Below, in pieces: positions 5,101-41,100 of a stretch of DNA of 64,000 nt. The notes under the pieces were generated by a model that saw nothing but the letters and a program-made list of their open reading frames with translations, was not told where the DNA came from and searched no databases. Every line of letters begins with the position of its first letter. Within the stretch, counting starts at the first letter, position 1. The translations under genes were made by a program, and so were the position numbers. Source of the DNA: Owenia fusiformis (Eukaryota); the NCBI GenBank assembly GCA_903813345.2, contig CAIIXF020000001.1:22382001-22446000 (forward strand). Reading direction: 5' to 3'.

Positions 5101-8100
5101 GACCTTACTGCATATGAAAGCATGGAAGCATGAAAGCATGGAAGCATGGAAGTTGATACTAAAAACAATTAATGAGGTTAAAGATAGCAGTTTGGTAGTT
5201 TATTACAGAATTTCAAGGATTTGTATTTTTCTCAATTTCAACAACAATTTTTTGATTTTCCAGAGGCTGAAGAGTATGTAGCTGTGAAGCTTAATTTTGA
5301 TAAAGCTGTCATTAAAGAGCGTATAAGACAGGTAAGATGTTTTTCTCAATTAGAGGCTTTAAGTAGTAGGGAAGAGATCTTCAGTCTTATAAGAATAGTA
5401 CTTGCATTGTTACAGTTCAATTATTATTATTTAGATCGACTTATTTATTTAACCTATGACACCTTTATAGGGTAATCATTCCTATTGCATAGATCACTCA
5501 AAAAGTGTTCAATGTTTATCAAGTCAACATTGAGTATTGAGTCACATGGGAATCCAAACTAAAGCCTTTCAATGAAGTATATCGACATCCAAGACTAAAA
5601 TATGATTTGGTTATTCAATTATCAGATTAACGATACAAGATGTATTACTCAAGGGGCGAGGAGGAAAATTCTCAATAAATGGTGTATAGTTGGTTTGGCA
5701 GCATTTTCAGTTAGGGGAGAGTCTTGGATGAAAGTTCCACCTAGGTGATAGCTTCACAGAGTGGTAGGAAGTTCTTTTTTTTGAGGAGTTAGCCCCCCAC
5801 CCCCTAAAAACACCCCACCCGGAGAAAAAAATTGTTCACAGTAAATAACCTTAGATATTTTGATGTTTGTAAGTGACATACATAGAATTACATATATATG
5901 AATCACTTGCAGTATAATTGATGCTGATTGCTCCCAAAGAAATTGAATATTAGTACAAAGTGTGTACCCCAGGGGGCAAATTCGTGACTCATTTTCTTAT
6001 TTTTTTTATCCTAACTTTTCAATTAGACACTGTAAGAGGTTGAAAAAATTCATGGGAAGTGCCCAATAGCAGGGTTAGTAAAACTGAAAGATGCAAAGCC
6101 ATTGAAAAGGTAGGAGCTGAGAAAAAAATTGTTGATTTTTCGAAAAATTTGACATTTTTGACAATTGGATTTTGTGTATGACTATAGCTGACCCCTATAG
6201 TTTCTAGCTCCATCTCTCTATAATGATATTTATGGTTTTATAGTGTGGAACTAAGATGTAAAACATGATTTAGATGGGTTTTAAGGAAGTTAAAGGTTTT
6301 AAACAAGTCCAAAATTTGAAAAATTGTAAATATAAGGTTTCAAATTTACATATTCCAGGTATAGCCATGGCTGACCCCTATAGTTTCTAGATCCATCCCT
6401 CTGTGATGATATTTATGGTTTTGCCATGTGGAACTAATATGTAAAACACAATTTAGATGGGTTTTAAGAAAGTTTAAGGTTTTAAACAAGTCCAAAATTT
6501 GAAAAATTGTGAATATAAGGTTTCAAAATTTACGAATTTCAGGTATAGCCACGGCTGACCCTTATGATTTTTACATCCATACCTCTATGATTAAATATAC
6601 AGTTTTAGAGTGTGGGACTAAGATTTAACATATCCAAAATGAATTTTAAGGAAGTTTAAGGTTTTAAACAAGTCCAAAATTTGAAGAATTGTAAATGTTA
6701 GGTTTCAAATTTATGAATTTCAGGTATAGCCAAAGATGACCCTTATGGTTTTTACATCTATACCTCAGGGATGAAATATATCATTTTAGAGTGTTTAACT
6801 AAAATGTAAAAGATACCTAAGATGAGTTTTAAGGAAGTTAAAGGTTTTAAACAAGTGCAAAATTTGAAAAATTGATCTCAAAATTGGTCTCAAATTCACG
6901 TTATTCAGGTACAGCCTTGAATGAGCCCTGATAATTGAAGGTTATGAGCATAATAGTATCAACTATGATATCATAGCTTAGAGACCAGGTGTAGAACATA
7001 TACCTGTTGCAGCAGTTAGTCTGCTGCATATAGGTGGAGTGAAAAGTCGTGAACTACAGTAAAATCTCTCTAATCTGAATGCTACTGGTATTTGGACCAG
7101 CTAAAAGCATTCTAATTAGGAGTGTTTTAATTTTGAGGTTTTTACATCTACAATACAAGTTCTGGATTTTGAAGAAATATGAATGCATTCTCAATGAAAA
7201 ATATTAATAATATTTATACTGACCACATAAAAAGCTTAATAGCATTCCAAAATCCAAAAGTTTTGATATCATAACAATTCAGTGTTAAACTGACAATTTT
7301 GTAAGAAATATGTGATATTTGGTAAAAAGAGTTCAAGTTAGACGGATTAATTTTTCAATTAGATATGATGATTGGTAGGTATTCACAATAGTCAGATGTT
7401 GGGATATACAGGTTTCACTGATGATGTATCATTTATACAAGATGATGAACTAGAACTACTGTACTAGGTGCATTTGATAATTTTTACCACAATGTTAATA
7501 CTATGTCAGGAAAAGAAAGCACCCATGACACTTTGCTTGTACAACTTGAAAATCAACAACACTTTAAGATTTGATAAAGGTGTCTACCAAATGAGTAATC
7601 CACATAAATTCAAATACAAGCACTTGGCATGCTATTCCCTATGATGCTATTTATAGATTTTTTGTCAATGTTATTGATCAGCTCATTGGTTTCATTACTT
7701 TCTCTAGAATCTAAAATTGACCTTTGGTTTATGAGAGTGGTAAATTGGAATGCAGTTATATGGAATATTGAATTGGCTGGAATTGGACACACCTTGCCTA
7801 GCTATGTGTGCGAAAACTATGATCTTATGTGGATACAAACAGTTCGTTTGACAATGATCATCTATCTTATCTGTAAAATCAGAACTTAAAAAGGGGTTTG
7901 AAATGGAGATCGATGAAACCATACCACAAATTGATAAAACTTTCGTGATCGATGCAATGGCTATGACAAAAGGAAAATTAAGATTAACTTATATGTTGAA
8001 ATTTTGAGAGTTTTGGAAAGCTATATTTGACTACTCCATCAAATCTAGTAAAGGAGCACAAAGAATAGATTTCATATTACTCCTAGTAGTCTCCATCAGT

Positions 8101-11100
8101 AAAGGATTCTGAAAGAATGCGAAGAATGGATGCTTCCCCTACTGAACTTTAATCCAAAGAAGAAATTACACCATTACCTAAAAATATGAATACCTTTTGG
8201 CCAAGTCATATAATACAAATTTTCAAAGATTACAAAGAAATTTAATAAAGCAGCATACTAAAAGTGTGCCAAATGTCAAGATTGTTTTAAGTGGAACTAT
8301 TGGAGAGAACTTAAATATCTGTGAAAATGATAACTGAAATCCCCCGTTAAATTCCACTCTTGAAGAGGCTGATTTTAAACTTATTCACTCTGTTTTACAT
8401 TCAGTAGGAGAACATGTGGGACTGCAGTAATTTGCATCAAATGACACTGATATTCTAATTTTATGACTATCATTTCAATAAATGTAAAAAATTCTTCAAC
8501 TGCTAGAAAACGTCATCTGCAAAGTCAGTATGTAAACATTTTCTACAATGTCTGTTTGTTTAATACATATTGATCATATATATCACCATATATACTTTTT
8601 TGATCTACATGAAGATTTTAGTGTGATAAGACCCTTTTACCCTGGAGTTCCTAATCTCATTGCACTAACGGGAGTTTCTAGGCCCAGCGGGGTATGATCC
8701 TTATAATCCTTATTTTCCCAAATAATTACTGTTGCCTGATGACAAGTTGTTTTATTGGGAGTGTAGTGATTATAATTATAATCCATGGCTATACCTAACA
8801 TTCGTAAATTTGAAACCATATATTTACAATTTTTCAAATTTTGGACTTGTTTAAAATCTTTAACTTCCTTAAAAACCATCTAAATTATGTTCTACATCTT
8901 TAGTTCCATACTACAAAACCATAAATATCACCAAAGAGGGACGGATTTAGAAACTATAGGGGTCAGCCATGGCTATACCTGGAATTCGTAAATTTGAAAC
9001 CTTATATTTACATTTTTTCAAATTTTGGACTTGTTTAAAACCTTTAACTTCCTTAAAACCCATCTAAACTATGTTTTACATCTTAGTTCCACACTATAAA
9101 ACCATAAATTTCATCATAGAGGGATGGATCTAGAACCTATAGGGGTCAGCCATGGCTATACCTGGAATTCGTAAATTTGAAACCTTATATTCACAATTTT
9201 TCAAATTTTGGACTTGTTTAAAACCTTTAACTTCCTTAAAACCCATCTAAATTATGTTTTACATCTTAGTTCCACACTTTAAAACCATAAATATCATCAT
9301 AGAGGGATGGATCTAGAAACTATAGGGGTCAGCCATGGTTATACCTGGAATTTGTAAATTTGAAACCTTATATTTACAATTTTTCAAATTTTGGACTTGT
9401 TTAAAACCTTTAACTTCCTTAAAACCCATCTAAATTATGTTTTACATTTTAGTTTCACACTATAAAACCATAAATATCATCATAGAGGGATGGATCTAGA
9501 AGTTATAAGGGTCAGCTATAGTCATACACAAAATCCAGCTGTCAAAAATGTCAAATTTTTCGAAAAATCAACAATTTTTTTCTCAGCTCCTACCTCTTCC
9601 ATGGCTTTGCATCTTTCAGTTTTACTAACCCTGCTATTGGGCACTTCACATGAATTTTTCCAACCTCTTACAGTGTCTAATTGAAAAGTTAGAATCAAAA
9701 TAGTAAGAAAATGAGTCACGAATTTGCCCCCTGGGGTACATACTTTGTACTAATTTCCAAATTCTTTAGGAGTTATCAGCATCAATTATACTGCAATTGA
9801 TTCATATATATAATATCTATGTATGTCACTTACAAACATCAAAATATCTAAGGTTATTTAGTGTGAACAATTTTTTCCCCAGGGTGGGGTGTTTTTGGGG
9901 GGGGGTGGGGGGCTAACTCCTCAAAAAAAAGAACTTCCTACCACTCTGTGAAGCTATCACCTAGGTGGAAGTTTCATCCAAGACTCTCCCCTAACTAAAA
10001 ATGCTGCCAAACCAACTATACACCATTTATTGAGAATTTTCCTCCTCGCCCCTTGAGTATATGAAAATAATTGTACATTTGTGGTATGATATGATATGAT
10101 GAATTGTGTGAACTCAAAAGACGGGGAGTAATATCCAGTATTGATATTATATGTCGACTAGCAACATTGCATGATACTGTAAATAATACTAAAATATACT
10201 GAAAACTGAAGAGGTACCTTGATTCTTGGATAAGAATGGGGGTAGTAGTGTAACTATTTAGAATTACTGAATATAATATTCAATGTATCTGTCAGTCCCT
10301 ATATACTAGACATAAACAGCAAACATATCTGTATTTAGCAGTTATGTCCCTATCTTTGAATATATGCCTGGGGTCTTCCATTGCTACATTATATCAATGG
10401 CATCACACGTCTGTGTGTGAGTGAAATTTGGAAGAAATGAAACATGACGTCATATGATTGTCTTGGCAAAAAAGCTTGGCGGCTATACAGGAATATATAG
10501 CTGACGTTCAGCTCCATTGACTTCAATACAAATGCTTCTCTAGGTATGTAATACATAACATTATAGACACTATGCTACAGTTGAATGAAATTTTAGTGGT
10601 TTTCTGGATAATGTATCGGAGTCATAATTGAGATTTGATATGTATAATAATAGAATGGTGCTGTTGCAAAGATTATGGGAAATACTTTTCAAGTTTCTTA
10701 TGAACCTTTCTGAAGTGCTTTCTCATTAATGTTACTGTTATAATATCATGCTGGTGCTCAGACCATCTCTTTCCTACTATAAGGACCGTGAGCTCGCTCA
10801 ATGTTCTACTTATCATATTCAAAAGTGTCAAATTAAGTCTGTAATAGGACAAATCTCAATATTTGCCAGAGAGTTTACACAATCTCCCAAGAATATACCA
10901 TGCTATGATTCTCAACAGTTTGATGAACATTGAAGGCCTCAGCCAGCGAAGCAGCCACAGGATCCATCCCATGTTATGCCGTGCTGTAAATATTTTCAAA
11001 AATTCAATCAAACTCTCTGTGAATGATTGTAGAAATTCAAAGTCTACTTTATCTGGGGTGTCACTGGGGGCGTGGAAGAATGGGTTGGAAGTGCCCTTGA

Positions 11101-14100
11101 GATCCAGGATTGTTGAGTAGCCGTGTTTGTGGTACTCCGTCAGTTCTCCACGGTACCATGGTGTACCAGGCATTATGGGAATGATTTGGGTTGCGCTGAA
11201 ATGTCCACTAAGGATCTGCAGCAAATTAGATGATGGGGTCAGCCTTGTGGGATAATTCGTTGGGATCACTTGGGCTGGTATATTGTTTTTTCCGGTCCCA
11301 GCGTCTACATGTTATGTTAGCTCCACAGTGAATAGCCAAAGCTGTTTCATTTGGTGCTGGCATCAGTGTTGACTTCGTCATTTCGGCTGAACCAAGGTTG
11401 TCAAATTCATGCCCTGAATTACACGTGAAAAACCAGCTGTAGGCTGAGCTTGCAGTTGCAGCATATTGTGCTAATGCTAAGAAAATTGCCACTCCAGGTC
11501 CCCTCTCGCTGGCACACCCGAACCAACCACTCTGGGCAGTGGACACAACTATCCACTGTTTGCCTCTTTTCAAGGTCGCATATGTATTGTAAGCTACTCC
11601 ATTGTTATTCACAGTACCTGATGCCTTTATCTCAACCTGTCCTTTATTCTTCACAGCCTCATTGATTTTGTCTCCATCTTTTATACCAACTAGAAATACA
11701 GGCAAGGGATGGAGTTCTAGACTCTTAGGGCTGTTCAGCATCGCTAGTTCACCACTTGGACTGTTCATGACAGCAATCAGAGCTCTCACATTACGTTTCA
11801 CAGACTTAACTATGTCAGAGTCATAGCGGAAGTCCTTGATTCTGACCCCTGTACCTCTAGAAACATCACTCAGCCATTCAGTGACAGCTACATCACCTTC
11901 ACAACATTTATTTAAACTCGCCAATGTTCCTTTTATGTCCCCAATTTCATTGAAGTTGAACTGTGGAAATGCATCAATCTTTGGACCATCTCTGATTTTG
12001 ACATAACATTCTGAATGGTCATACTGAATAACCTTGAATTCCAGTGTTTTGGTCTCGAATCCTAAAGATCTTAATTTCTCACCGATCCAGTTTGTCGTTG
12101 CGTGGTCTTGTGTGGTCCCTGATCTATGGCAGTTGGGTCCGAGAGTATAGTACTCCTGTATTACCTGCTTGCAGTCCATTCCAGCTTGTTTAACATTGAG
12201 AGTCATTTTGCTTCTTTATGGTTCTTATGTTACTTATAAATGTCCATGTAGTTTGTTAAAGGTTATTCTGAACTGTTTGTGGTAATACATATATACAATG
12301 TATGTTTATATACGAGGGGCGGCTCAAAAGTAATTGGCAACATTTTACAGGAGTAGTAAGATTCATCCAGTCTGTGTGAGATTAAGGTATATATCAAGAG
12401 CAACCAAAATGATAAGTTGTGAAAGAATTGTAAAACCAAAATAAAAAGTTTTCACGTTTTCAATGAGCCTTTCTGCCAACCTTTTTTTGTCTTAACTTTT
12501 GAATCATCCCTCGTATGTTGACAATATATTGTCAATTTGTTTTGTGACCTTTATCTTGTGTTCTTGTTTCTAACATTGAATTTGAGTTGATAAGTGGCAC
12601 CAAAGCGCTGATATTATGAGTGATCTGATGATTACATATAATGTAAAGCTCTCATACAATTTAATTTACAATGTGTAAAATGATCGCCCTTATGTACGAG
12701 ATAGGTTCTATACAAAATGAACCATTACATAATCTTGTTGTATTGTCAAGAGGAATCAATCAATTTGTGTGTTTATCATGGTATAACACAGTATGGTATA
12801 TCTTTTATAGTAGATCATTATTATTTACAGGAACCACAATTTAGAGGACCTCGAACTACTTCTTGTATGTGTTTTCCTGCTCAAACATCTGTTGCCTTGT
12901 TTGACTGGATCATAAATTACATATTTGCACGTGTAAAACATATTTCGTGAAATTGCACCAAGAGAAAGTTGTAAGTTCTGAAGAAAAGCGTTAACTGAAG
13001 ATATGTGTTTCTGGTATGGTCTGATTATTTGAAAGTCAACTTGGGCAAATAATTAGTGTTAAACATAAACATCTCCAGGTAGCATGAATACATATGTTTC
13101 ATAAATAGAAAATGTATTTTATTTAGGTTTCATAAAAATTGAAGTACTAGACATGTTATAAATCCCAGTGATATCACTAGCACTTGTATATATTATCTGA
13201 TTGTCACTTTGTTTGTAATCCACATAACACAGATTTGTTACCATTTATATTTATTTATTAATAATTTACAAATTCTGAATATCAAATAACTTTACATTGC
13301 ATTGATCATGTCTCATAATAAAACAACTAATCTACTTGTGTATTAAAGATATTAAAGATAACACTGCATTTGCATGTTCCTAATGAAATAAAATATCTTT
13401 TGTTGGTTCATAAAATTAATCTCTCTTCGTGTTAACAAGTTAAGAAATTGGTGATAGAAATATATACCAAATTGGTGTTAAAATGGCACAAAAAATATTA
13501 ATTATTTAAATGCAGTGATACTTGTTCTCTCATTGGTCAGTGACACAGCATGTGACTAAAGTAAAAAAGTTTTCTGATGACTTTTTTTATCAACCAGGTT
13601 ACAGATTTTGATAACAACCATGTTACAGATCCTGTAAATATACATATCAAAAGTTATCAGTTCAAAAATATTAAAAACTTTCTACAATATCTAAACCTTT
13701 TTTGCTGTTTGTTGAAACTTGGTACTGTTCATTCCAATTTATATATTTCTAGAAAACAACTAGATATAATTTACAAATACTAATTGTAACATAATTTGAT
13801 TTTAGTTTAGATATGTAAACCACCACCATTTGACATCGTTGAAGCACTGAGCCTGTATGTTCTATGGAACAGTAAAATACAGTAAAACCTGTCTTAGTGA
13901 ACACCTCTCTCTAGTGAATGCCTGTCCTTAGTGGACACTCTTCCTTGGCTTGTACACTACTGACTTCTGTATAAATCACCCTCTCTGAAGTGAACACCTA
14001 CCAACACTGAATATTTCATGGCAAAAGTATGTTCAATATATACAGGTTTGACTGTACTACTTAATTAAGTAGGAATTACTATTTAGAGACAGACAATATA

Positions 14101-17100
14101 AATGTACAAAACATTATATGAGTACTACATTAGTACAACTGTACATACACAGTTATAAATAATCTTACATTATATAGTGCATGATTACTGTAAAACACAT
14201 TGAATTTGTGGGAGCAATTTTCACAGATTTATACATTTGTTTCTTTCGCACACTCATGTTTTCACAATTTTTCAAGTGCCTTGATTCCTGCCAAGAAACA
14301 ATTTTAAATTCTCGGCATCCTGAAATTATGATTTTACACTCACGGGAATATACATGAACTCAAGATGTCTGCAAATTTAATGTGAATTACAGTATGTGCT
14401 TAAAAATTGTGCTAAATCTACTCTACAGAAATAAATTATAAATATTACTTACAATTAATCATTTGGCATTTTAGAGGCATTGCCTTCATTGATGACATGT
14501 AGTTATACATACATGTATTATAAATATGTGTCACGATTACAAAATCAAAAATTATAGACATCAACCATATTCCATTCCTCGACACCCAGTAGAGACTAGA
14601 CTTCACACTCAGCGCGCAACCTTTGCAATCTTTTGTACAACACATTTACATTTAAAAAACAGATTTGCTTATTATACCAAAAACACACTCATATACTGAG
14701 TGCGAAACATTGTTTTCATTTCAAATACATTTACGAGACATCTGATTTCATCATCTATGTGAAGTTGCTGTTGATATGACCATCATCAATTGATTCAGGA
14801 AACTTAGAAATATTTTCATTTCATGATATTATTGTCAGATTCTTGTTCTCAATTGGATGACTCACATATCATGTTTACTTCTTTAAAGTAATGGTATTTA
14901 AATCTTTTGGAAAAATCCTGACCCATATCGGGAACCGAGAAAACTAGAAAAAATTATTAAAAATTATGATGTCATACTTTACAGGCAGCAAAAACTAAGA
15001 ACTTTTCGGGAATTATGACTAAGAAATTTTTGCCCTGTCTAACATAGAAATGTTATCGCAATATTCATACCACATCACAACATTCAGTTCTCACTGCAGC
15101 TTTGTCTTTTCTCCTCTACACTTTAAATAAATAGATAATTAAATTAAATAAATTAATATCAAACCTTCATCTTGCACTTTTGTGTTATATTCGATGATAA
15201 GTTTGATGACAATAATTGCCGTAGATCACATATTGCACAATATTTTTGTGACCCCTCCTTCACTTTAAGCAATTTCTTATTCACTTGTCATTCATAAAGT
15301 GAGCATTTTAGAATTCATTTGTGTTTGACATTGTCATTCTTAATTTTTGTCTGATTTAATAAACCATTGCACAAACCACACATTTGAATAATTAGGATTC
15401 AAAAATTCATTCCTTTCATTCGTTATACAAAACAATTCATTTGATTTGATTGTAAGGAATGGCCTTTTCCATATTTTCCTTTTGATATGGATGTTTGTAC
15501 TGCATATAGAATATGATTACTTATAGTCTATTTGAAATTACAAAGATAAACCTTGAATTTTGGTGATAATTTCAAGAGTTCGATTCCATACTTGGAGATC
15601 TTGGCATTTTGAAGTTTGTTCCTTTGTAGATAATCATAGATGGATTGATCACATCTTTTATGCAATTTGTACACTCATCAGCGACCTTATTCACGGCTAG
15701 TTGCACACAGCCATGGCAACCATTTGGGAAATAATTGAATTCTCTATGTATCTGGCATTTCTCAGCACCATCTGTACAGTAGTTGTAGATCTTTCTCAGA
15801 GTATCTTCCAAGTGTTCGGCTCTGGCTTTATATAGATGAGCCAGGGTTTCGGGGGTCAACATTGGGTACCCGGGGAGGTTCTCTAGTTGGCCGACGACTC
15901 TGTGTTTAAGGAGATTGATTGCATGTTGACGTAGATTGCTGAGGTTATAACGCTGAGCGAGAACGAGTGACTCTACTGAGGGATCCTGGGAGATTAGGAA
16001 TAACTCACATCGTTCTGTCACTTTTATTATTTGATACTCCTCAGCAAGCTGGAGAAGGTAGTATACATTTTCATCTGCAACAGAAGACAGATCTTATAGA
16101 TCACAGTATACTGTTCATATATAGTAGGCAAATGGCAAAGGTTTTAATACAAATATTCACCCTTGGTATACGCAGCTAACGAAAATTGACCGGTACGGGT
16201 CAAAAGCTGGATCGGTACGGGTTAACGGTTTTATTTGAATTTAAAACAGCCATAACTTGCTCAATATTAACTTCCTCGTGTCTAATTTGAAATATATGAT
16301 GCCTCCCGATGCTTTTAAGTACCACAATTTTTTACAGATTTTTAAACGGACCAAAACTCTCTAAGTGCGCATTTATGCTCTTTTCTCTCGAGAACGACTG
16401 TCTCATTTTCACGATAACTTTTATTTAGTACTTCTAACATATAAGATCTATTTTTCCCCATCAAGGTATGATGTAAATGACATGCTATTTACATCTTGTG
16501 AGTTTCGATGACGCGCGTTTGATTTTATAAAAAATGCCAAACTTTGTGACAAAGAATTTCATCCTGCTTGCAGCGAGAAGACGGACCGGTTCGGGGCAAT
16601 CTGCTTGTAGCGAGAAGACGGACCGGTTCGGGGCAATAGCTGATGCAATTCTTTGTCACAAAGTTTGGCATTTTTTATAAAATCAAACGCGCGTCATTGA
16701 AACTCACAAGATGTAAATAGCATGTCATTTACATCATACCTTGATGGGGAAAAATAGATCTTATATGTTAGAAGTACTAAATAAAAGTTATCGTGAAAAT
16801 GAGACAGTCGTTCTCGAGAGAAAAGAGCATAAATGCGCATTTAGAGAGTTTTGGTCCGTTTAAAAATCTGTAAAAAATTGGGGTACTCAAAAGCATCGGG
16901 AGGCATCATATATTTCAAATTAGACACGAGGAAGTCAATATTGAGCAAGTTATGGCTATTTTAAAAAATAATAAAACCGTTAACCCGTACCGGTCCAGCT
17001 TTTGACCCGTACCGGTCAATTTTCGTTAGCTGCGTATACCAAGGGTGATATTTGTGTAATTCAAAAATGTCATCGATAAATCATGTCTGAGATTAATAAT

Positions 17101-20100
17101 GTTTAATATTATCCAAATCTAAGATTGTTAAAATTGTGATGGATTTAATTTTTTACTTTGATTCAAAGAATTTTATTTTATATAAAATAATTAATTTTGT
17201 CTGATATATCCTACCCCCTCCCTTGTTTTTTAAGGAGAGGTGAATGGAAAACATCAGTGCTTGAAACTTACTATTAATTCCAGATGGGGCTAGAACCATT
17301 TAAAAATAACTTTTAATCATTTTTATATAATTTCAATAAACAGTATTAACCTCCCAATTTATTCAATTTCGTCACTCTCACACTCTGAATTTCTCAATTT
17401 ATGCTTGATTGATAAGTTAAAGGTGCAATATAACAAGTCCATACATAGCACTGGCCAATCTAGGTGGGGGGGGGGGCAGAAAAGAATTGTGGGCATTTCT
17501 TGGCCTCTTTTGGCCAAATTATAAAAAATTGGACTCAGTTTTTCAAAATATAGGCCCAAATTTGAGATTTAAGGGCCCAAAAAGTTATTCCTAATTTGAA
17601 ATTTGCTCCTCCCCCTTGTTAGCTTCCGGATCCGCCAGTGCATAGCATGGTTTTAAATACAAATTCTAACATGTATTGTGTGTTAAAATATCTACCTGTG
17701 ACAGGCTTCTGTGAAGAATATATGCAATGTAGTAACTCCCTAATCTGCTCCAAGTTTTTGTCAGTGAGAGCGAGGCGATATTTCTTCTTCTTGGGGGTAG
17801 TTCTGAAGTAGAAATTGTGGAATAGTTAAAGGCACTCAAATTTAAAGTTACTCAAGAATAAAGCCATTCACTCATAATAAATTAAAGAAAATGAAATACT
17901 TAAGGTTTTCAATACTAAATAAAGACATTCAATATTGAAGCCAGTCTGTCTTAAAGCCACTCAATCTTTAACCACCATTCAAAATTAGAATCATCTGTTT
18001 TTGAAGTCACTTAATATTAAAGCTTCGAGTTAACAAATCAATTTAATCATTAAGAAACTCAATGTTAAACGAATACATTTTAAATCAATTCAGTGTTTTA
18101 ATAAAATGTTAAAGGCACTTACTTTAAGAACATCTGTTTAAAGACAGGTGACCATTCTGCGAGATAAACTCTATGTACATGTAAATCTTGTCCCTCGACT
18201 ATTAACACAGCATCTGAAAACTCATCTGCTTTTGAGAAATCCTTCAATGGTGCGTCTATCTCTATTTCCATTGTCAGAGAGTGTTTAGACTCCATTAGGG
18301 AAGACTTAGAAGCCTTCAAGGCTTTGCTGATTCTGTTCATTGCCATCTCGTGACTTTCTTTCGCTTTTGTAAAATGTTTCGAAAGTGATTGTACCAAAGC
18401 AGAATATTTTTCACACATTTAAAGTCAGTATAGATGTTTGTTATCTTATGTGCTTGGTGGTCTCTAGTATTGTGTCCTTGTCTATCGATTGTTTTAGCAT
18501 TTCTTGTCCAGATGTGGATACTGAGATGTCTTCATTTAGTCTTTGTTCCAAAATGTTAATCTCATTCTCTGTAATTGAATTGCGTAGTTCTCAACAGCCA
18601 ATTAGCTTGTTGTAATCTAGTTCAAGTGATAGTTTTTATTACTCAGCGTTATATTTAGAGTGCTCTCTCAGCTGATTCGTGTGACAAATGTCTCCAATGG
18701 TCTCCAGTTATACACATTCCCAAATGGCTCAGATTAACTTTATAAATGTTTGTTTTCCATGGAAATAAGTGTCACCAAATATTGATGGTATGTTGTGGAA
18801 GTTGAGTGCAATCAGCTTTTAGATTCCTAGCTCTTCATGGCAATTTCTGAAAATGAAAAATGTGACAATATAAAGCAAGCGTCAGCATCTGGAAATATAT
18901 GCTGGGCTGTTAATGATACCATAATTATCTGATAAGTTCTTCTTACATAATATGATAATGAATTACATATGGTTTTCAGGGGTTTCATTAGCACCAAGCA
19001 ATAAACTATGGTTATTTTACCCAAATTACCAATTGTTTTGAATGATTTTGTAAATGTTTCCATGTTAAAATTATAATTTTCAATAATTATGCCTTTTCAT
19101 AAGTTTTTTTATGTTATCAAAATTTCTACCGAAACCCAGATAATTATCATTTTATAGTCAAACTTAGATCCTAAATTCTGGTATGGAAAATTCCAATTAC
19201 CAAGATTCTTTGAAATAACACAATGTCATTTCTTAAATGAAACAACGAGGACATTTTTCATGACAAAAATCAGTTTAACATGCTGCGCAATAAGTTCTTT
19301 GTTTCACCATTTATGACCCTAGCAACATTGTTTGATAGACTTAAACAAAGAAATCCATGCATGTTTCATCTTAATTAGTGGTCAGAGATAAGAAAACATG
19401 TCTAACCACTAGCCATCAATAAGAAATGAATATTAAATATGCCCCAAGATTTTATTCAGAATTACTTACTTTATGAAGATGTGCATTGTTTGTATCTTTA
19501 TCTATTTATCTATATCTATTTATTCCAGTGATCTCATCTAACTTAAAACACAGAACTCAAATGAAGTAATTGTATCCTGATCTGATAAGACCTTTGCTCC
19601 AATACGGCAACTTGTCTATTTGTATTCTATCTACACTTGAGTCAGACTTTTAAATCAATCGTAGTTAATTATAGCAATTTAAAGTTAGCGAACCTGCCTT
19701 GTACCATATGGGTTCACCCTCTAGCCAACATGTCACAGAATTACTCGCTAGAACTCATTGTAATCGATTTGACACCATAAAAGTAAATAAAATCATTTAA
19801 AAATATTCTGTGCTATCCTTTTAGAAATGAATAGGAATTAAAAATGACTCTTTTTAGAAATTTACTTAGAAAAATACAAAATTAATGCTATATGTACAGT
19901 TGTATGTGTTTCATGTATTTAGAAGCCTAGTAAAAGCAATCATATAACGTTAATCAATAAGTTGAAATTAATTTAAATGATGTTTTTTTCAATTTCAGAT
20001 TGCAATCAGAGAGTTGCAATTAGTTCATATATGGCCAATGTATGGTGAATATATAGGATTTAATTAATAATTACTTCATGATTATGTTAGAATCTCCTTT

Positions 20101-32100: not shown

Positions 32101-35100
32101 AGAATTGCTTTCACCATTACTCCAACCTTCATTGGATTCACTGAATGAAAGATTTGTAAACATTTACATTTATTTATTAGGTCATCGATTTGATTTCTTT
32201 GACTCAGGCATAATATCCCTCCAGATCTTTGTTCAAGACTTCCCAGATCTTTCCTTAATTCTCCAAAATCTTTGATCAAAGATCTCTTGACTTGCCACAT
32301 ATGCAAACGAAGATCTCTTAGCTTACCACATATGCAATCAAAGATCTCTCAACTCACCACATATACAATCAAAGATCTCTCAACTCACCATATTTACAAT
32401 CAAAGATCTCCATCTCAACACATATGCAATCAAAGATCTCTCCACTCAACACATATGTAATCAAAGATCTCTTAACTCACCATATATACAATTAAAGATC
32501 TCTCAACTCAACACATATGCAATCAAAGATCTCTCAACTCACCATATATACAATTAAAGATCTTTCAACTCAACACATATGCAATCAAAGATCTCTCAAT
32601 TCAACACATATGCAATCAAAGATCTCTCAACTCAACACATATGCAATCAAAGATATCCCAACTCAACACATATGCAATCAAAGATCTCTCAGCTCACCAC
32701 ATATGCAATCAAAGATCTCTCAACTCACCACATATGCAATCAAACATCTCTCAACTCACCATATATACAATCAAAGATCTCTCAATTCACCACATGTGCA
32801 ATCAAAGATCTCTCAGCTCAACACATATGTGCTCAAAGATCTCTCAACTCACCACATATACTATCAAAGATCTCTCAGCTCAATACATAGTACTATGCAA
32901 TCAAAGATCTCTCAACTTACCATATATACAATTAAAGATCTCTCAACTCAACACATATGCAATCAAAGATCTCTCAACACATATGCAATCAAAGATCTCT
33001 CAACTCACCAAATATGCAATCATAGATCTCTCAACTCACCATATACAGGGTGTCAAATAAGTCCCGTCCCCCCCCCTACAGCCAAAACAGGAAAAGATGG
33101 TACATAGTGTGATATACCATTGGAAAGATCGTCCAAAGTTAAGTTGATTGGCATATATCTGACACTTGTCAATCAATGTCACAAATTGCTACATTGTTGC
33201 AATTAAGGTGCCCGTATATATAAAAAGGCGGCAATTCAGCAGATTTTTGAAAACCAGGCATCAGTAATGCCATTCAAGAAAAGTCTGTCAAGATGGCAAC
33301 ATATGTATCTGATAGTGAGATACAACAATTTGTAGATAGAGTAAGATGTGTTGCATACAGAGAGGCAGTGGACAGTGGTGCAGACTTTATTTGTAAGAAA
33401 TGGATAGCGAAGAAGATTAAAAGATCTGACAAGTTTGTTCAAAGATGCTGGAAAAAGCCGTATGATGAACTTGTTACACAATCAAGATGTGGTGCTCCCG
33501 AAGTCCTTTCTCCTGCATCAAAGGAAGTTATATGGGATGGATCAGCTAAAAAGAGAAAGAGTTGTACTGAAGTGGCCAGAGATATCAAGATGAAGCGTGG
33601 CAAGGTGGTGTCAAGACAATTGGTGCACAATTATCGTGTTCGCGAAGGCCTTAAGGCATGGCACATTATTCCTAGACCATTGAAGAATGAATCCCAAAAA
33701 GCAGATCGCCTTTGGTTTATTAACTTTTTGAGAGATTGGGATGAGGATGACTTCCTCCATTTGGCTCCTTCTGATGAGTTTTTTTGTGTATACAATAAGA
33801 AAGCCAAACCATCAGAATGACCGTGTATGGGCTAAACGGCGTGATGATTGTAGTGATTTGCTAGTGCGAGAACAGTTGGCATGGCCCCAATGCATAGGGA
33901 TTTTCCTCTTATTTACGGCAAAGAAGATGATGTGGATTATTAAAGAGGATGGTCAGAAATGGACCGGGGATTACTTCCGTGATACAGTTTTAAGGGGGAG
34001 GGTAATACCCTTTCTAAGAAATCCTCAGAATGTGATTGAGCCATCCCAAGTGACTTTGTTACATGATAAGGCCCCTTGTATGAAGGCATTGGCTACACAA
34101 GATCTCCTCAAGCAGTCAAAAATTGACTTTTTTGGGAATGATGACTATCCTAGTAATAGTCCGGACTGTAATGCGTGCGAACATATGGGATCCATAGTTA
34201 AGGATAGAACAGAGGCACTTATGGATGAGGAACCCATAGAGAACAGAAATTCAAAGGATGCTTTATTAAAAAACTTGAAGAAAGTACTAAAAAGTCTTGA
34301 AAATGCACATGAACTTTTTGACGTTTTGCTTAAGTCATATCCGTCTCGTTTTGACGCCATAAAAGCTGCTGGAGGGGGACATACCAACTATTAAAGAAAT
34401 CATCAGAATAAAGGTAAATGTCATCTAAACTACTTGAGAGTTGGTGAGTTAATGTAACTTTGGATGATCTTTCCAATGGTATATCACACTATGTACCATC
34501 TTTTCCTGTTTTGGCTGTAGGGGGGGGGACGGGACTTATTTGACACCCTGTATACAATCAAAGATCTCTCAACTCACTACATATGCAATCAAAGATCTCT
34601 CAACTCACCACATATGCAATCAAAGATCTCTCAACTCACCATATATACAATCAAAGATCTCTCAACTCACTACATATGCAATCAAAGATCTCTCAACTCA
34701 CCACATGTGCGATCAAACTTACTCACCACATATGCAATCAAGGATCTCTCAACTCACCACTTATGCAATTAAAGATGTCTCAACTCAACACATATGCAAT
34801 GGAAGATCTCTCAACTCACCACATATTCAATCAAAGATCTCTCAACTCACCACATATACAATCAAAGATCTCTCAACTCACCACATATATGATCATCTTC
34901 ATCTGAGCCATCTTGGCAGTCCACAATGCCATCGCAACCCTACAATCAAGAAAAGCATATCTATCATATGACATATATACTTCTGTCACTACTACCAGTA
35001 TAGTAAATATTTTTCATGTTCTTAATGAGTTACATGGGTTAATGATTTCAAACGTAGTATTTCATACCAACATTGAATGTATGCATTCTCCTGAGTCCCT

Positions 35101-38100: not shown

Positions 38101-41100
38101 CCTATGACCCTTGGTTCAAAAGCTCGCCTATTTTCAAAATGGTTGCCATTCTTGTTCCGCGAAATTCACTTTTTGCCCATTTCCTAGCTTTACATTTTAG
38201 CTTTAATTTCAGCTGTCCTGCATTGTAAAAAGCCATGTCACTGTTAAAGGTAGTTCTATGAAGTAATTTTGTTACAAAAAATCAGCAAAATATTATATCC
38301 GTTTTTTTATTTTCAGCCATTTTAGTTAACATTGATTTGTCCATCTGTCTCGCGAAATCCTCTTTTAGACCATTTGCTCAAAACCTCTGTCGATAGGATT
38401 CCAGTTTCAAGTTATTTTTGTTCAACATCAATACAAAAAACTCCCTTATGACTCCTGGTTCAAAAGCTTGCCTGATTTCAAAATGGTCGCCATTTTTGTC
38501 TCGCGAAATTCAATTTTGGCCCATTTCCTAGCTTTACAAATAATTTCAGGTGTCTTGCATTGCAAAAAGCCATGTCACTGTAAAGAGTAGTTGAATGAAA
38601 TAATTTTGTTGCAAATTATTGGCAAAAAATTATATCCGTTTTTTTTTCAGCCATTTTAATTGACTGAGAGACAGATGGCTTGAAATAATTTTGTAACAAA
38701 AAATCAGCAAAAAATTATATCCGTTTTTTTCTGTCACCATGTGAGCCCAGTACCCATGGTACTAATTTTTAAAATAGCAGCCATGGCCATTTCATGGGAT
38801 TTGCTACGCCTTGATGTTGTTTTTATCACAATGTTGTTTTTATCTAATTTTCACATTTACCTGTCAATTCTGCTCTCTTGGTAGTCTAGTTTATGATCTA
38901 TGATCTTAGGAGAAACCTTGAGTTGAGATCCACTAAGTTCACAGTCACATGTTGCCTCAAGTCTTCGTATTATGTAGATGGCCACAATCAGGACCAACAA
39001 GTTCCTTGCTATCATTCCCAGACAGTTTAACAACATCTTGTGCGAATATATAGAGTAAACTAAAGAATTATTCTAAACAAAACCTTTTTCTAATGTGAAT
39101 ATCTTGCAAATACCTGAAGTCTGTGATAAAACTCATGAACATTTGTATTATTCAATGATGTTTGGGAGGGATATAGAGAAGCTATCTATTTGTCCGTCAG
39201 TTAGTGTATCAAGGTCATAACTCAAATACTGTTTGTCAGATTAAGCTCAAGTTAACGAAGCTGATCCCTAGTGTGCATAAGTCCTCTGCTGAAGAAAAAA
39301 TTTATTGTATGGCTGCATTGAAAATGACCACCATTTTTGAATAAAACCGCTTATAATAAGGTTAACAATCTCTGTTTAAGAGGGGATTTTCAATATGGCC
39401 TCCAAATTCAAATAATCAACATCTTTTTTCAAAATCTCAGTCATTTTTCCTTCAACTTCAATGTTGTTGGATAGATTGATTATAAATATATATGATAAGA
39501 ATAAGTGAATTGATAATATATAATTATATTATGGAGAAACTATGAGTACCGGGTTTTAGGAGGATTAATAGCCGAGGGCCAATAGCCCCAATGCTATCAA
39601 TTTGATTTCGTTTGTATTGACTATGAGGTAAGTGTTTTGAGAAGTGAGTGGGTGTAATTAGTTCAGCTTCAGTGCACTGCATGTAAGAGGTCAGGAACAG
39701 TTTACAGTGATCTCCACAGGATTTTTCTAAAGTGGGTGCAAAATTCTCATTTTCACAATTCAGACCAAAATTGGTCAAAATATGCCCACTTTTCATAATT
39801 TTTTTATTTTCAAGTGGGTGCAAATGAATTATCAGGTGGGTGCAACCTTATTTTTAAAATCTTACTTTAATGCTTGGGAGATCACTGGTTTAAAATTTGA
39901 TTTATTTTGTGTTTACTATTCAACTATTGAGTGAATGAAAGGGTTTTAGTAAGATGCATGTGACAGTACAGGTGTAAACATGAGACAAAAATTGTCAATC
40001 TTTTTTTTTTATACCAAACTGGGTTTGGATAGCTATGCCAAGTGTCCATTCTTTGAAAATAATAGAAAGAGAATACACTCTTTGTTACAGCTGTATATTC
40101 TTTAAATTATTATTATTGGGATATAGTCATCATACTGGTCGTGGTCGTGATCGTGTTCGTGATCGTGATCGTCCCGCTTTTTGTCATCGCCGTTTAAGGA
40201 AAACTGCTCATCAGATTTTCTCCAAATTCGCAGAGATGATAGAGCATATGAAGTACTAGAGCTGATTAACTTTTGGGTTGCCATCTTGTTGGTGTTACTT
40301 ACTGTTTAGTATAAAAGGCATGATCCCGGAATAAAACTCAAGGGTACACAGGATTGAGGTCAGTGTGTCAACACCTTTTCTTGTTTATCTAGCAATAATA
40401 TAGTATAGATGGTCACACATTTATAAAAGGGAGATTTTTATTTTATTTTACTTTTTTTATGGGTGAAGTTTAGGATCTTCTTTTTGTGTGTAATAGAAAA
40501 ATATTGACATCTAAATTTGATAACCATCAGGTATTAGCATATAGTATAGCTTCTGAAATGATCTACAAATGAAGCAAAGCAGTTTGGATGAATACAAGGA
40601 TATATTGGCTGTTTTACATGCATCCTTTGGATAACTCACTCACTCAATGCTGACAGAATCATTGTAAACAGATTATTTTATCTCCATGACGATTTCAATA
40701 AACTAGAATTTAGAAACTCAACCTTATCTCATAAAAATGGACTAATCCATTTGACTCGCCTGGAGCCACCATATTGTTTTTGTACAGGAAACTTATCGTA
40801 ACCCTTTAATCATAGAAAACATTAGAGTCAACATACAATTAACTTGCTGTTATAATTCATCCTCTCATCAAATGAAAATATCAGTATAAGAATCATCAAG
40901 GACAGAACTTTCCTAAAATGAATAAGAACTAATTAATGAGCTGGAATGTTTATAAGATTCATTTCTACAGATAAAATTCTAATATTCAGGTTCTTTAGTA
41001 TTTGCTTCATATTCTTTTTTTCGTTTTTGAACCATTGTGTGAATAACTCCGCTGCACATGCTTTGTGTCTTTTCTGTCATAATTCGGGCACATTTTGTAC

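What the first reader, a model, noticed from the sequence alone, without database searches (positions are those of the whole stretch)
10856..12206. Intronless bacterial-like PA/M28 peptidase: horizontal transfer candidate
Seen: 1.35 kb with no introns among intron-rich genes, no signal peptide, A-rich start context (GCAAAATG). The usual M28 motifs (HxD, GAxDN, EE) are replaced by STAQSGW, ASERGPG and SGHE, while the C-terminal FFHxPxD is kept. From memory this variant resembles an uncharacterised proteobacterial protein family rather than animal M28 enzymes; this recollection is unverified. It is flanked by host-type MITEs inside a host intron, which argues against contamination. The altered ligands suggest unusual chemistry.
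Basis: partly seen in the sequence, partly recalled or inferred. Interest (0 to 1): 0.8.

Follow-up and report, generated by a model that had tools for sequence, protein, structure and literature searches.

The report
Bacterial-type M28-like gene in a eukaryote
A single-exon gene of a bacterial, M28-peptidase-like family sits in a eukaryotic, probably animal, chromosome, has taken on the host's DNA make-up and still keeps the family's key residues, so it is a good candidate for an old gene transfer from bacteria.

Summary
The coding region is real. It lies on the minus strand, 12206 to 10856, in one exon. In the window a run of six A (11286-11291) splits it into two frames. Contigs of an independent run (X2) have one A fewer, which gives an open 449-codon frame.

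All detectable relatives look bacterial, at 28-35% identity:
- 543 of 600 pattern hits in prokaryote genomes, from Acidobacteriota, Bacteroidota, Alphaproteobacteria and Planctomycetota.
- 2489 library proteins at E<=0.001.
- No closer relative in 5.8 billion protein clusters, JGI metagenomes or viral contigs.

It is not contamination. CpG observed/expected is 0.39 against 0.43 for the window and 0.75-1.28 for bacterial homologues. GC3 is host-like. X2 depth equals that of neighbouring host DNA.

The protein keeps 42 of 46 family-conserved columns. The fold is M28 with a PA insert. Metal site 1 is lost, the catalytic Glu is His, and sites 2, 3 and 5 remain.

Still open:
- Expression is not shown: two RNA runs gave no sense reads.
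- The donor lineage is unresolved.
- The "inside a host intron" claim has no support.

The parts
11289..12206 (-). First part of the coding region (residues 1-306), from the ATG at 12206-12204 to the last codon before the frame break. It holds the N-terminal M28 half, the PA insert, and the motifs STAQSGW (11523-11543), ASERGPG (11493-11513) and SGHE (11406-11417).
   Evidence: ORF listing and translation. Alignments to bacterial relatives. AF2 model with pLDDT 89.2.
11286..11291 (-). Run of six A on the minus strand, where the reading frame shifts in the window. Run X2 has five.
   Evidence: sequence. table 4: one letter left out at 11286, depth 80.8 of 80.8, one contig; dropping it gives a 449-codon open frame.
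10856..11285 (-). Second part of the coding region (residues 308-449 plus the stop at 10856-10858). It holds GE, GY and FFHAPSD (11060-11080, His378 and Asp382). A tail of about 38 residues extends beyond the end of the three aligned homologues.
   Evidence: The tail has a maximum 19-residue hydropathy of 1.36 and 8 Arg/Lys in the last 42 residues, so it is not a clear membrane span.
12305..12323 (-). Possible promoter. TATATAAA lies at 12305-12312, its 5' end 106 nt upstream of the ATG, preceded by a GC box at 12316-12323.
   Evidence: Read from the sequence. No transcript start was observed, so this is inference only.
9000..10059 (.). High-copy host repeat with 183-nt internal tandem units. 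An inverted copy lies at 5646-6702 (92% identical). Its end at 10059 is 797 nt beyond the stop codon.
   Evidence: Self-BLAST. Tandem units. X2 word depth is about 114,000 here against about 75 in unique DNA.
13875..13985 (.). Short high-copy element upstream of the gene. Many reads and contigs break or rearrange here. The ends are approximate.
   Evidence: bin 13579-13965 has depth 55,438 in X2, with loose ends at 13877-13918. A 33-nt match lies at 43461-43493.

Best explanation
This is a gene of bacterial origin that has been carried in the germ line of a eukaryotic, probably animal, host long enough to take on the host's base composition. Selection has kept it open and kept its family-defining residues.

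It encodes a 449-residue protein of an uncharacterised, widespread bacterial branch of the M28 fold with a PA-domain insert. In that branch:
- The site-1 His of the co-catalytic zinc pair is replaced by Pro in bacteria and Ala here.
- The catalytic Glu is replaced by His266.
- The three residues that hold Zn1 in canonical enzymes are kept as Glu234, Glu267 and His378.

The most likely working model is therefore a one-metal M28-type enzyme acting on peptide or amide termini, with the PA domain as a lid. This resembles the one-zinc M28-type enzymes more than a classical two-zinc aminopeptidase.

The host copy has no signal peptide, unlike many bacterial members, so it would act inside the cell.

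Shown: homology, fold, residue pattern, integration, amelioration, and an intact allele. Inferred: selection, metal number, activity, and location in the cell. The single-base frame break in the window is either a homopolymer error of the assembly or a segregating null allele.
For: Bacterial kinship:
- The profile search found 2489 library proteins at E<=0.001, 561 of them at E<=1e-30.
- The best identity to the window pieces is 30-35%.
- 543 of 600 pattern-matched stretches in 185,579 prokaryote species genomes are relatives. The 80 kept loci are Acidobacteriota, Bacteroidota, Alphaproteobacteria, Planctomycetota and others, at 28-35% identity.
- Of the 7 structural-neighbour cluster rows the Atlas listed, 5 are 100% Bacteria and 2 are 92-93%. 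Six are mostly Pseudomonadota and one mostly Myxococcota. TM is 0.85-0.86 for the first four rows and 0.74-0.86 over all seven.
- The word search of 5.8 billion clusters gave only 3 hits, at most 35% identical.
- The JGI metagenome scan gave 0 relatives among 77 pattern hits. The viral scan gave 0 of 44.

Integration and age:
- BTB, Tudor and Tc1-type genes with split exons lie on the same 64-kb window.
- X2 contigs join the coding region to AT-rich non-coding flanks on both sides (records 2 and 4). Depth is 80.8 on the gene against 72 on the BTB-gene contig.
- 17 listed runs from 5 studies of the same organism label hold part of the stretch, 9 of them half or more.
- Gene CpG observed/expected is 0.39, against 0.43 for the window, 0.39 for the flank and 0.75-1.28 for 7 bacterial homologues.
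- GC3 is 0.41-0.49, against 0.26-0.49 for host exons and 0.83-0.85 for alphaproteobacterial homologues.

Constraint:
- An open 449-codon frame exists in X2.
- The window keeps 42 of 46 columns that are at least 85% conserved in 214 bacterial rows. The bacterial median is 44 and the 5th percentile 40.
- All 5 base differences between X2 and the window in the coding region are at third codon positions, and 4 are synonymous.

Fold and site:
- PDB profile hits: 2ek8 at E 8.9e-15 over the full length, and 6hc6 at 1.6e-17.
- The AF2 model has pLDDT 89.2 and pTM 0.87.
- Foldseek hits include 2ek8 at 2.8e-17 and 6hc6 at TMq 0.67, plus PaAP, GCPII and transferrin receptor.
- The residue correspondences are read from the alignments.
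- The site scheme (Zn1 on sites 2, 3 and 5; Zn2 on sites 1, 2 and 4; Pro at site 1 in GPAA1) comes from passages and Table 1 of PMC7522609.
Against: - The window itself carries the frame break, and the ESM Atlas holds the truncated 326-aa product letter for letter. At least one deposited record therefore has A6.
- Only one X2 contig shows A5, and contigs drop rare variants.
- Two raw RNA runs (X18 and X19, about 6% of each read) gave zero depth over 11257-13191. They gave only about 1x antisense-side depth in 10870-11256. The neighbouring BTB exon had 0.5-2.8x.
- No AATAAA or ATTAAA lies within 800 nt after the stop.
- The window branch is very long: 1.9 against a median of 0.34, and 2.78 against 0.59. 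Its placement beside Caulobacterales-type Alphaproteobacteria has 97% local support in FastTree but no starred support under the mixture model. No donor can be named and long-branch artefacts are possible.
- The trees are unrooted.
- Three highly conserved residues differ: Pro224 to Ala, Trp291 to Ala, and Gly139 to Asn.
- Eukaryote genomes could not be searched directly. The absence of eukaryotic relatives rests on protein collections.
- Bacterial gene neighbourhoods give no common partner and so no functional clue. They are sulfatases in 17 loci, Amidohydro_2 and esterase in Acidobacteriota, and an EF-G paralogue and M23 in Hyphomonadaceae.
Confidence: 0.7

Rival explanations
1. It is a transferred gene that is now a dying relic. 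The frame break is real, the gene is silent, and what looks like constraint is only the remains of a once-functional copy.
For: - The window has A6, and the truncated 326-aa product is on record in the Atlas.
- There are no sense reads in the two RNA runs.
- There is no nearby poly(A) signal.
- The terminal branch is very long.
Against: - CpG depletion to the host level implies long residence. Yet there is only one disabling change in 1350 bases, at a homopolymer, and it is absent in X2.
- The window keeps 42 of 46 conserved columns.
- 5 of 5 polymorphisms are at third codon positions.
- The RNA sampling was shallow: 6% of two runs, with the neighbouring gene at 0.5-2.8x.
Confidence: 0.17
2. 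It is an old eukaryotic gene inherited vertically and lost, or unannotated, in most lineages. It is not a transfer.
For: - The sequence is about equally far (28-35%) from all bacterial groups.
- Its placement has no strong support under the better model.
- Eukaryote genomes were not searched directly.
Against: - No eukaryotic relative appeared in the 5.8-billion-cluster search. Every listed Atlas structural-neighbour cluster is 92-100% bacterial by its labelled members.
- The gene is a single exon among split genes.
- In both trees the window sits inside, not outside, the bacterial diversity as drawn.
Confidence: 0.09
3. It is bacterial contamination or a chimeric assembly.
For: The relatives are bacterial, and the region has higher G+C than its flanks (0.445 against about 0.33).
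Against: - CpG observed/expected is 0.39 and TpG is in excess at 1.35, as in the host and unlike 7 bacterial homologues.
- GC3 is host-like.
- The flanks hold no bacterial-type neighbouring ORFs.
- The independent run X2 joins the gene to the same flanks, at the same depth as host single-copy DNA.
- Runs of 5 studies hold the stretch.
Confidence: 0.02

Closest known systems
Bacterial PA-domain M28 aminopeptidases with solved structures: Aneurinibacillus AM-1 aminopeptidase (2ek8), Bacillus subtilis BSAP/YwaD (6hc6), Shewanella M28 (3iib), Pseudomonas aeruginosa PaAP (8ac9, 8ack)
   Same: - Same domain order: M28 core with a PA insert.
- Full-length profile match (2ek8 at E 8.9e-15; 6hc6 at 1.6e-17).
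- Fold match (TMq 0.59-0.67).
- An acidic residue at site 2, Glu at site 3, and the C-terminal H-x-x-x-D kept.
   Different: - Only about 15% identity.
- The site-1 His is Ala here (Pro in the bacterial family).
- Site 2 is Glu rather than Asp.
- The catalytic Glu is His266.
- The Pfam M28 and PA models do not reach their thresholds.
One-zinc M28-type enzymes: glutaminyl cyclase and the GPAA1 subunit of GPI transamidase
   Same: - Only the Zn1 position (sites 2, 3 and 5) is used in glutaminyl cyclase.
- GPAA1 has Pro at site 1, as the bacterial members of this family do (passages and Table 1 of PMC7522609; passages of PMC11312887).
   Different: - Neither has a PA insert.
- Glutaminyl cyclase keeps the site-1 His and site-4 Asp although they are unoccupied. 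I recall from memory that it also keeps the catalytic Glu.
- Sequence similarity here is limited to the N-terminal 60-70 residues.
- The likeness is in site logic, not in family membership.
Animal M28B proteins: glutamate carboxypeptidase II and transferrin receptor
   Same: PA plus M28 fold (Foldseek E about 1e-16, TMq 0.57-0.64). From memory, transferrin receptor shows that this fold can persist without catalysis.
   Different: - 12-14% identity.
- They are about 700 residues long.
- From memory, they have an extra helical domain and an N-terminal membrane anchor.
- They are not the source of this gene.
Documented bacteria-to-eukaryote gene transfers in general
   Same: A single exon, bacterial nearest relatives, host-like composition, and linkage to host genes and repeats.
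   Different: - No paper on an M28-type transfer into an animal was among the listings of my two searches. I saw titles and abstract starts only, for 15 of 432 papers and 12 of 37.
- Expression and orthologues in sister species are not yet shown.

Membership tests
Peptidase family M28 (Pfam PF04389; MEROPS M28) | Sequence matches the curated family model above its gathering score. | tested here: not met
   The window pieces give no M28 hit at E<=1. Of the 12 sequences scanned (the window piece plus 11 bacterial relatives), 4 match weakly, best E 0.0015. The one score I saw, P0001 at 17.6 bits, is below the 21.3-bit cut-off.
Peptidase family M28 (Pfam PF04389; MEROPS M28) | M28-type alpha/beta fold. 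| tested here: met
   Family profile against PDB: 2ek8 at E 8.9e-15 and 6hc6 at 1.6e-17. AF2 model pLDDT 89.2. Foldseek probability 1.00 to 2ek8, 6hc6, 3iib, PaAP and GCPII. Only residues 1-326 were modelled.
Peptidase family M28 (Pfam PF04389; MEROPS M28) | Five metal-binding sites His, Asp, Glu, Asp/Glu, His for two zinc ions (site scheme from PMC7522609, Table 1). | tested here: not met
   By the alignments: site 1 is Ala224 (Pro in 99% of bacterial rows), site 2 is Glu234, site 3 is Glu267, and site 5 is His378. Site 4 could not be placed; His293 or Gly295 is the candidate. The Zn1 triad is kept and the Zn2 site is incomplete.
Peptidase family M28 (Pfam PF04389; MEROPS M28) | Catalytic Glu directly before the site-3 Glu (the 'EE' motif). 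| tested here: not met
   His266 is aligned to the first Glu in 2ek8, 6hc6 and 3iib. His is invariant in 214 bacterial rows.
PA domain (Pfam PF02225) | PA insert within the peptidase core. | tested here: inconclusive
   No Pfam PA hit for the window. 2 of the 12 sequences scanned hit, best E 1.3e-06. The profile also matches the PA domains of ZNRF3/RNF43 weakly. Fold matches to PA-bearing M28 proteins span 300 or more columns.
Unnamed bacterial 'STPxSGW / ERGPG / SGHE' branch of PA-M28-like proteins | Family-conserved columns, with a length of about 400-450 residues. | tested here: met
   The window keeps 42 of 46 columns conserved at 85% or more. The read-through length is 449. E 2.1e-43 to P0001.
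Unnamed bacterial 'STPxSGW / ERGPG / SGHE' branch of PA-M28-like proteins | N-terminal export signal. | tested here: not met
   The window has 18 residues before the conserved Tyr, with maximum hydropathy 0.16. 101 of 214 bacterial rows have a strongly hydrophobic stretch there. Start codons of the locus-derived rows were chosen by script and may be off.
Bacteria-to-eukaryote horizontally transferred gene | Nearest relatives are bacterial and eukaryotic orthologues are absent. | tested here: met
   The limit is that eukaryote genomes were not searched as DNA, and the library carries no names.
Bacteria-to-eukaryote horizontally transferred gene | Physical linkage to host DNA and host-like composition. 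| tested here: met
   Window context. X2 contigs and equal depth. CpG and GC3.
Bacteria-to-eukaryote horizontally transferred gene | Supported nesting inside a donor clade. | tested here: inconclusive
   FastTree with 99 rows places it as sister to an alphaproteobacterial clade at 97% local support. IQ-TREE quick with LG+C20 and 47 rows gives the same neighbourhood but no starred branch. The branch is very long.
Bacteria-to-eukaryote horizontally transferred gene | Transcription in the host. | tested here: inconclusive
   No sense reads in X18 and X19, with about 6% of each run read. The neighbouring gene is at only 0.5-2.8x.

The most novel reading that the evidence does not exclude
A eukaryotic, probably animal, host has domesticated a bacterial one-metal M28-type enzyme. 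Its active site has His in place of the catalytic Glu and no site-1 ligand. The enzyme would carry out a reaction other than aminopeptidase hydrolysis, for example an N-terminal modifying or transfer reaction like those of glutaminyl cyclase or GPAA1. It would act inside host cells, and it would also give the first functional handle on a family of more than 2000 uncharacterised bacterial proteins.
Probability: 0.25. Interest if true: 0.7.

Novelty: new member of a known kind. Interest (0 to 1): 0.5.

Why it matters
Well-supported bacterial genes in animal-type genomes are still few, and many earlier claims turned out to be contamination. This candidate passes the composition and linkage tests that most false positives fail.

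It also draws attention to a large bacterial branch of the M28 fold with a conserved, non-canonical metal site. Its activity is unknown.

If the host copy is expressed, it offers a natural experiment on what such an enzyme does when moved from a bacterial envelope into a eukaryotic cell.

Tried and rejected
- The search for related loci with alignment A2 failed because it had no conserved stretch. I repeated it with A3.
- no whole genome is held for this window. Paralogues and the wider locus could not be searched.
- no RNA holder is listed. Several holders are only guessed to be RNA, and I did not use them as evidence.
- the raw DNA run X21 was too shallow. Unique flanks had 0-0.5x, so it says nothing on presence, linkage or the A-run.
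- the metagenome scan with the window protein gave 77 pattern stretches and no relative.
- the viral scan gave 44 pattern stretches and no relative, so there is no sign of a viral vector.
- the scan's earlier findings hold nothing on this place, sequence or topic.
- the C-terminal piece was translated in the wrong frame through my coordinate slip. Their C-terminal counts and tail figures are void and are replaced. The trees used the right frame.
- conserved bacterial neighbours differ by phylum, so no operon-based function could be drawn.
- the Atlas look-up of a neighbouring BTB exon showed only 'Eukaryota', with Nematoda, Cnidaria and plants among the clusters.
- Before reading I recalled that glutaminyl cyclase had lost its Zn2 ligands. 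The paper says they are conserved but unoccupied, and I corrected the comparison.
- A four-letter decoding step to read through the A-run was considered and not used, because it would have made a sequence of my choice. The full-length protein was therefore not folded; only residues 1-326 were.
- Complex prediction and the second structure job were not used.

Full report
**What is there**

On the minus strand a coding region starts at the ATG at 12206-12204, in the context GCAAAATG, and ends at the stop at 10858-10856.
- In the window it is not one open frame. ORF1 (11226-12206, 326 aa) and ORF2 (10856-11311) overlap in different frames.
- Alignment with relatives shows that both pieces belong to one protein. 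The shift lies between the conserved H-x-G-A block and the C-terminal third.
- The only homopolymer in that interval is a run of six A at 11286-11291.
- This is the longest stop-free stretch in the 64-kb window: 329 codons against 220 for the next. A 449-codon open frame has a chance of about 8e-13 at this base composition.

**The frame break**

I laid four runs of the same organism label on 7000-18600.
- Run X2 is kept as Logan contigs and comes from a different study than the other three. It has a 1138-base contig over 11068-12206 that differs from the window by five bases and by one letter left out at 11286 (depth 80.8 of 80.8).
- The break is therefore either a homopolymer error in this assembly or an allele.
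- The ESM Atlas holds the truncated 326-aa product letter for letter, so some deposited record carries A6.
- The raw DNA run X21 was too shallow to help, with 0-0.5x on unique flanks.

**Relatives**

- Pfam and NCBIfam give nothing for the window pieces.
- The word-based search of 5.8 billion clusters gave three proteins of 393-433 aa at 30-35% identity. Two of the three have hydrophobic, Ala-rich N-terminal leaders.
- A profile of these against 1.84 billion representatives found 2489 proteins at E<=0.001 and 561 at E<=1e-30. Of the 150 listed, none is more than about 35% identical to the window.
- In one genome per prokaryote species, 543 of 600 pattern-matched stretches encode relatives.
- The 80 kept loci are Blastocatellia and other Acidobacteriota, Bacteroidota (Flavobacterium, Spirosoma, Mucilaginibacter, Chryseolinea), Alphaproteobacteria (Hyphomonadaceae, Caulobacteraceae), Planctomycetota and others, all at 28-35% identity.
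- Of the 7 structural-neighbour clusters the Atlas listed, 5 are 100% Bacteria and 2 are 92-93%. Six are mostly Pseudomonadota and one mostly Myxococcota.
- Source names for cluster members are 'hypothetical protein' and, for one longer 933-aa member of P0008's cluster, 'para-nitrobenzyl esterase'.
- No closer relative appeared in JGI metagenomes (0 of 77 pattern stretches) or in viral contigs (0 of 44).
The family is broader than Proteobacteria.

**Trees**

- With 99 rows (FastTree) the bacterial sequences group by phylum. The window sequence sits as sister to an alphaproteobacterial clade (Caulobacteraceae and Hyphomonadaceae) with 97% local support, on an end branch of 1.9 against a median of 0.34.
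- With 47 rows under LG+C20 (IQ-TREE quick) it stays in the same neighbourhood but no starred branch holds it. Its branch is 2.78 against 0.59.
- I chose the rows by hand for spread. Rows under 380 residues were left out.
- The donor cannot be named. The trees are unrooted, and a long-branch artefact is possible.

**Not contamination, and not recent**

- The window carries BTB genes whose domain is split over exons (18119-18418 and 15575-16093; a second copy at 40982-43005). It also carries a Tudor gene and a Tc1-type transposase remnant.
- In X2 the gene contigs have the same depth (72.6 and 80.8) as the contig over the BTB gene (72). X2 contigs run from the coding region into the AT-rich flanks on both sides: 10526-11056 and 12177-12449.
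- Seventeen listed runs from five studies hold part of the stretch, nine of them half or more.
- CpG observed/expected in the gene is 0.39 with TpG at 1.35. That compares with 0.43 for the whole window, 0.39 for the upstream flank and 0.75-1.28 for seven bacterial homologues.
- GC3 is 0.41-0.49, within the host exons' 0.26-0.49 and far from the 0.83-0.85 of alphaproteobacterial homologues.
- This composition is what long residence in a CpG-depleting germ line produces.

**Constraint**

- The gene has been resident long enough to reach host CpG levels, yet it has one disabling change in 1350 bases, and that change is absent in X2.
- It keeps 42 of 46 columns that are at least 85% conserved among 214 bacterial rows. 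The bacterial median is 44 and the 5th percentile 40. The misses are Gly139 to Asn, Pro224 to Ala, Trp291 to Ala, and one Gly to Asp at position 368.
- An earlier version of this count and a tail analysis used a wrong frame for the C-terminal piece. They are void.
- The five X2 differences are all at third codon positions. Four are synonymous and one is Gln17 to His.
- I read this as purifying selection. It is an inference from one genome plus one contig.

**Fold and active site**

- The family profile matches PA-bearing M28 aminopeptidases of known structure over its full length: 2ek8 at E 8.9e-15, and with a deeper profile 6hc6 at 1.6e-17, 2ek8 at 3.2e-17 and 3iib at 1.7e-14.
- An AF2 model of residues 1-326 has pLDDT 89.2 and pTM 0.87. 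It matches 2ek8, PaAP, GCPII, transferrin receptor and BSAP at Foldseek E of about 1e-15 to 1e-17, with TMq up to 0.67.
- PMC7522609 (Table 1 and passages) numbers the M28 metal sites 1 to 5 as His, Asp, Glu, Asp, His. Zn1 sits on sites 2, 3 and 5, and Zn2 on sites 1, 2 and 4.
- Reading the alignments gives:
  - site 1: Ala224 (Pro in the bacterial family)
  - site 2: Glu234
  - the catalytic Glu: His266
  - site 3: Glu267
  - site 5: His378, with Asp382 four residues on
  - site 4: not placed; the invariant His293-x-Gly-Ala block is the candidate
- The family therefore keeps the Zn1 triad and lacks a complete Zn2 site.
- The same paper reports Pro at site 1 in GPAA1 and a one-zinc branch of M28-type enzymes.
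- PMC11312887 (passages) shows that glutaminyl cyclase uses only Zn1, although its Zn2 residues are conserved.
- This supports 'altered metal site'. It does not show what the chemistry is.

**Differences from the bacterial members**

- There is no N-terminal hydrophobic leader.
- A tail of about 38 residues runs past the end of the three aligned homologues. It is amphipathic rather than a clear membrane span, with a maximum 19-residue hydropathy of 1.36 and 8 Arg/Lys.
- Upstream there is a TATATAAA at 12305-12312 and a GC box at 12316-12323.
- No poly(A) hexamer lies within 800 nt downstream.

**Expression**

- Two stranded RNA runs (X18 and X19, about 6% of each read) gave no reads over 11257-13191.
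- In 10870-11256 they gave only about 1x in X18, in the orientation opposite to that of the neighbouring minus-strand BTB gene. The BTB gene itself had only 0.5-2.8x.
- Expression is therefore not shown. Sensitivity was low.

**Surroundings**

- 9000-10059 is a high-copy element with 183-nt tandem units and an inverted copy at 5646-6702 (92%). It ends exactly at 10059. X2 word depth there is about 114,000.
- Other high-copy pieces lie at about 10371-10525 and 13875-13985.
- The unique block around the gene is about 10526-13578.
- I found no evidence that the gene lies in an intron. The BTB gene upstream on the same strand has its stop at 15572-15574, and no spliced read crosses the region.

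**Verdict**

This is a new instance of a known kind of event. It involves an uncharacterised bacterial branch of the M28 fold with a conserved non-canonical site. Expression, the population state of the A-run, orthologues in related species, and activity are all open.

**Literature**

My two searches listed no paper on an M28-type transfer into animals. I saw only listings: 15 of 432 papers and 12 of 37. Supplementary tables of transfer surveys, which I could not open, might list this gene.

Noticed in passing
window 10059 and 12661: In run X2 a contig of depth 45 joins 10059 (the end of the high-copy element) to 12661 with 19 other letters between. Taken at face value this skips the whole gene. 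The gene contigs have full depth (73-81) while 12177-13180 is at half depth (44-49). A second haplotype with a copy of the element inserted about 450 nt upstream of the ATG therefore seems more likely than a gene-less allele.
   Followed up: partly
window 10514-10545: In both RNA runs, 192-244 reads match from 10514 onward and carry one well-agreed (0.99) foreign sequence before it. The window reads CTCTAG|GTATGT at 10540-10551. This could be a short exon, or an expressed copy of a repeat family elsewhere in the genome. X2 depth in this bin is very high.
   Followed up: no
window 15575-18418 and 40982-43005, minus strand: Two paralogous BTB-domain genes with the domain split over exons. Low RNA depth on the first one served as the strand and sensitivity control for the RNA runs.
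   Followed up: partly
window 32476-35000: A Tc1/mariner-type transposase remnant (33251-34394, weak HTH_Tnp_Tc3_2 hit, broken frame) lies between two blocks of a short tandem repeat that reads open in several frames.
   Followed up: no
L003, L016, L019, L023, L047, L059 and other Bacteroidota loci: In Bacteroidota the bacterial homologue lies among tandem sulfatase genes. The sulfatase component covers 17 loci, mostly Bacteroidota. In Acidobacteriota it lies next to Amidohydro_2 and esterase genes. In Hyphomonadaceae it lies next to an EF-G paralogue and an M23 peptidase. No neighbour is shared across phyla.
   Followed up: partly
P0008, P0045, P0068, P0127, P0135: Some bacterial members are 628-803 residues long, with the domain in the C-terminal half. 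One cluster member of 933 residues is named para-nitrobenzyl esterase by its source. Fusions with another hydrolase domain therefore exist.
   Followed up: no
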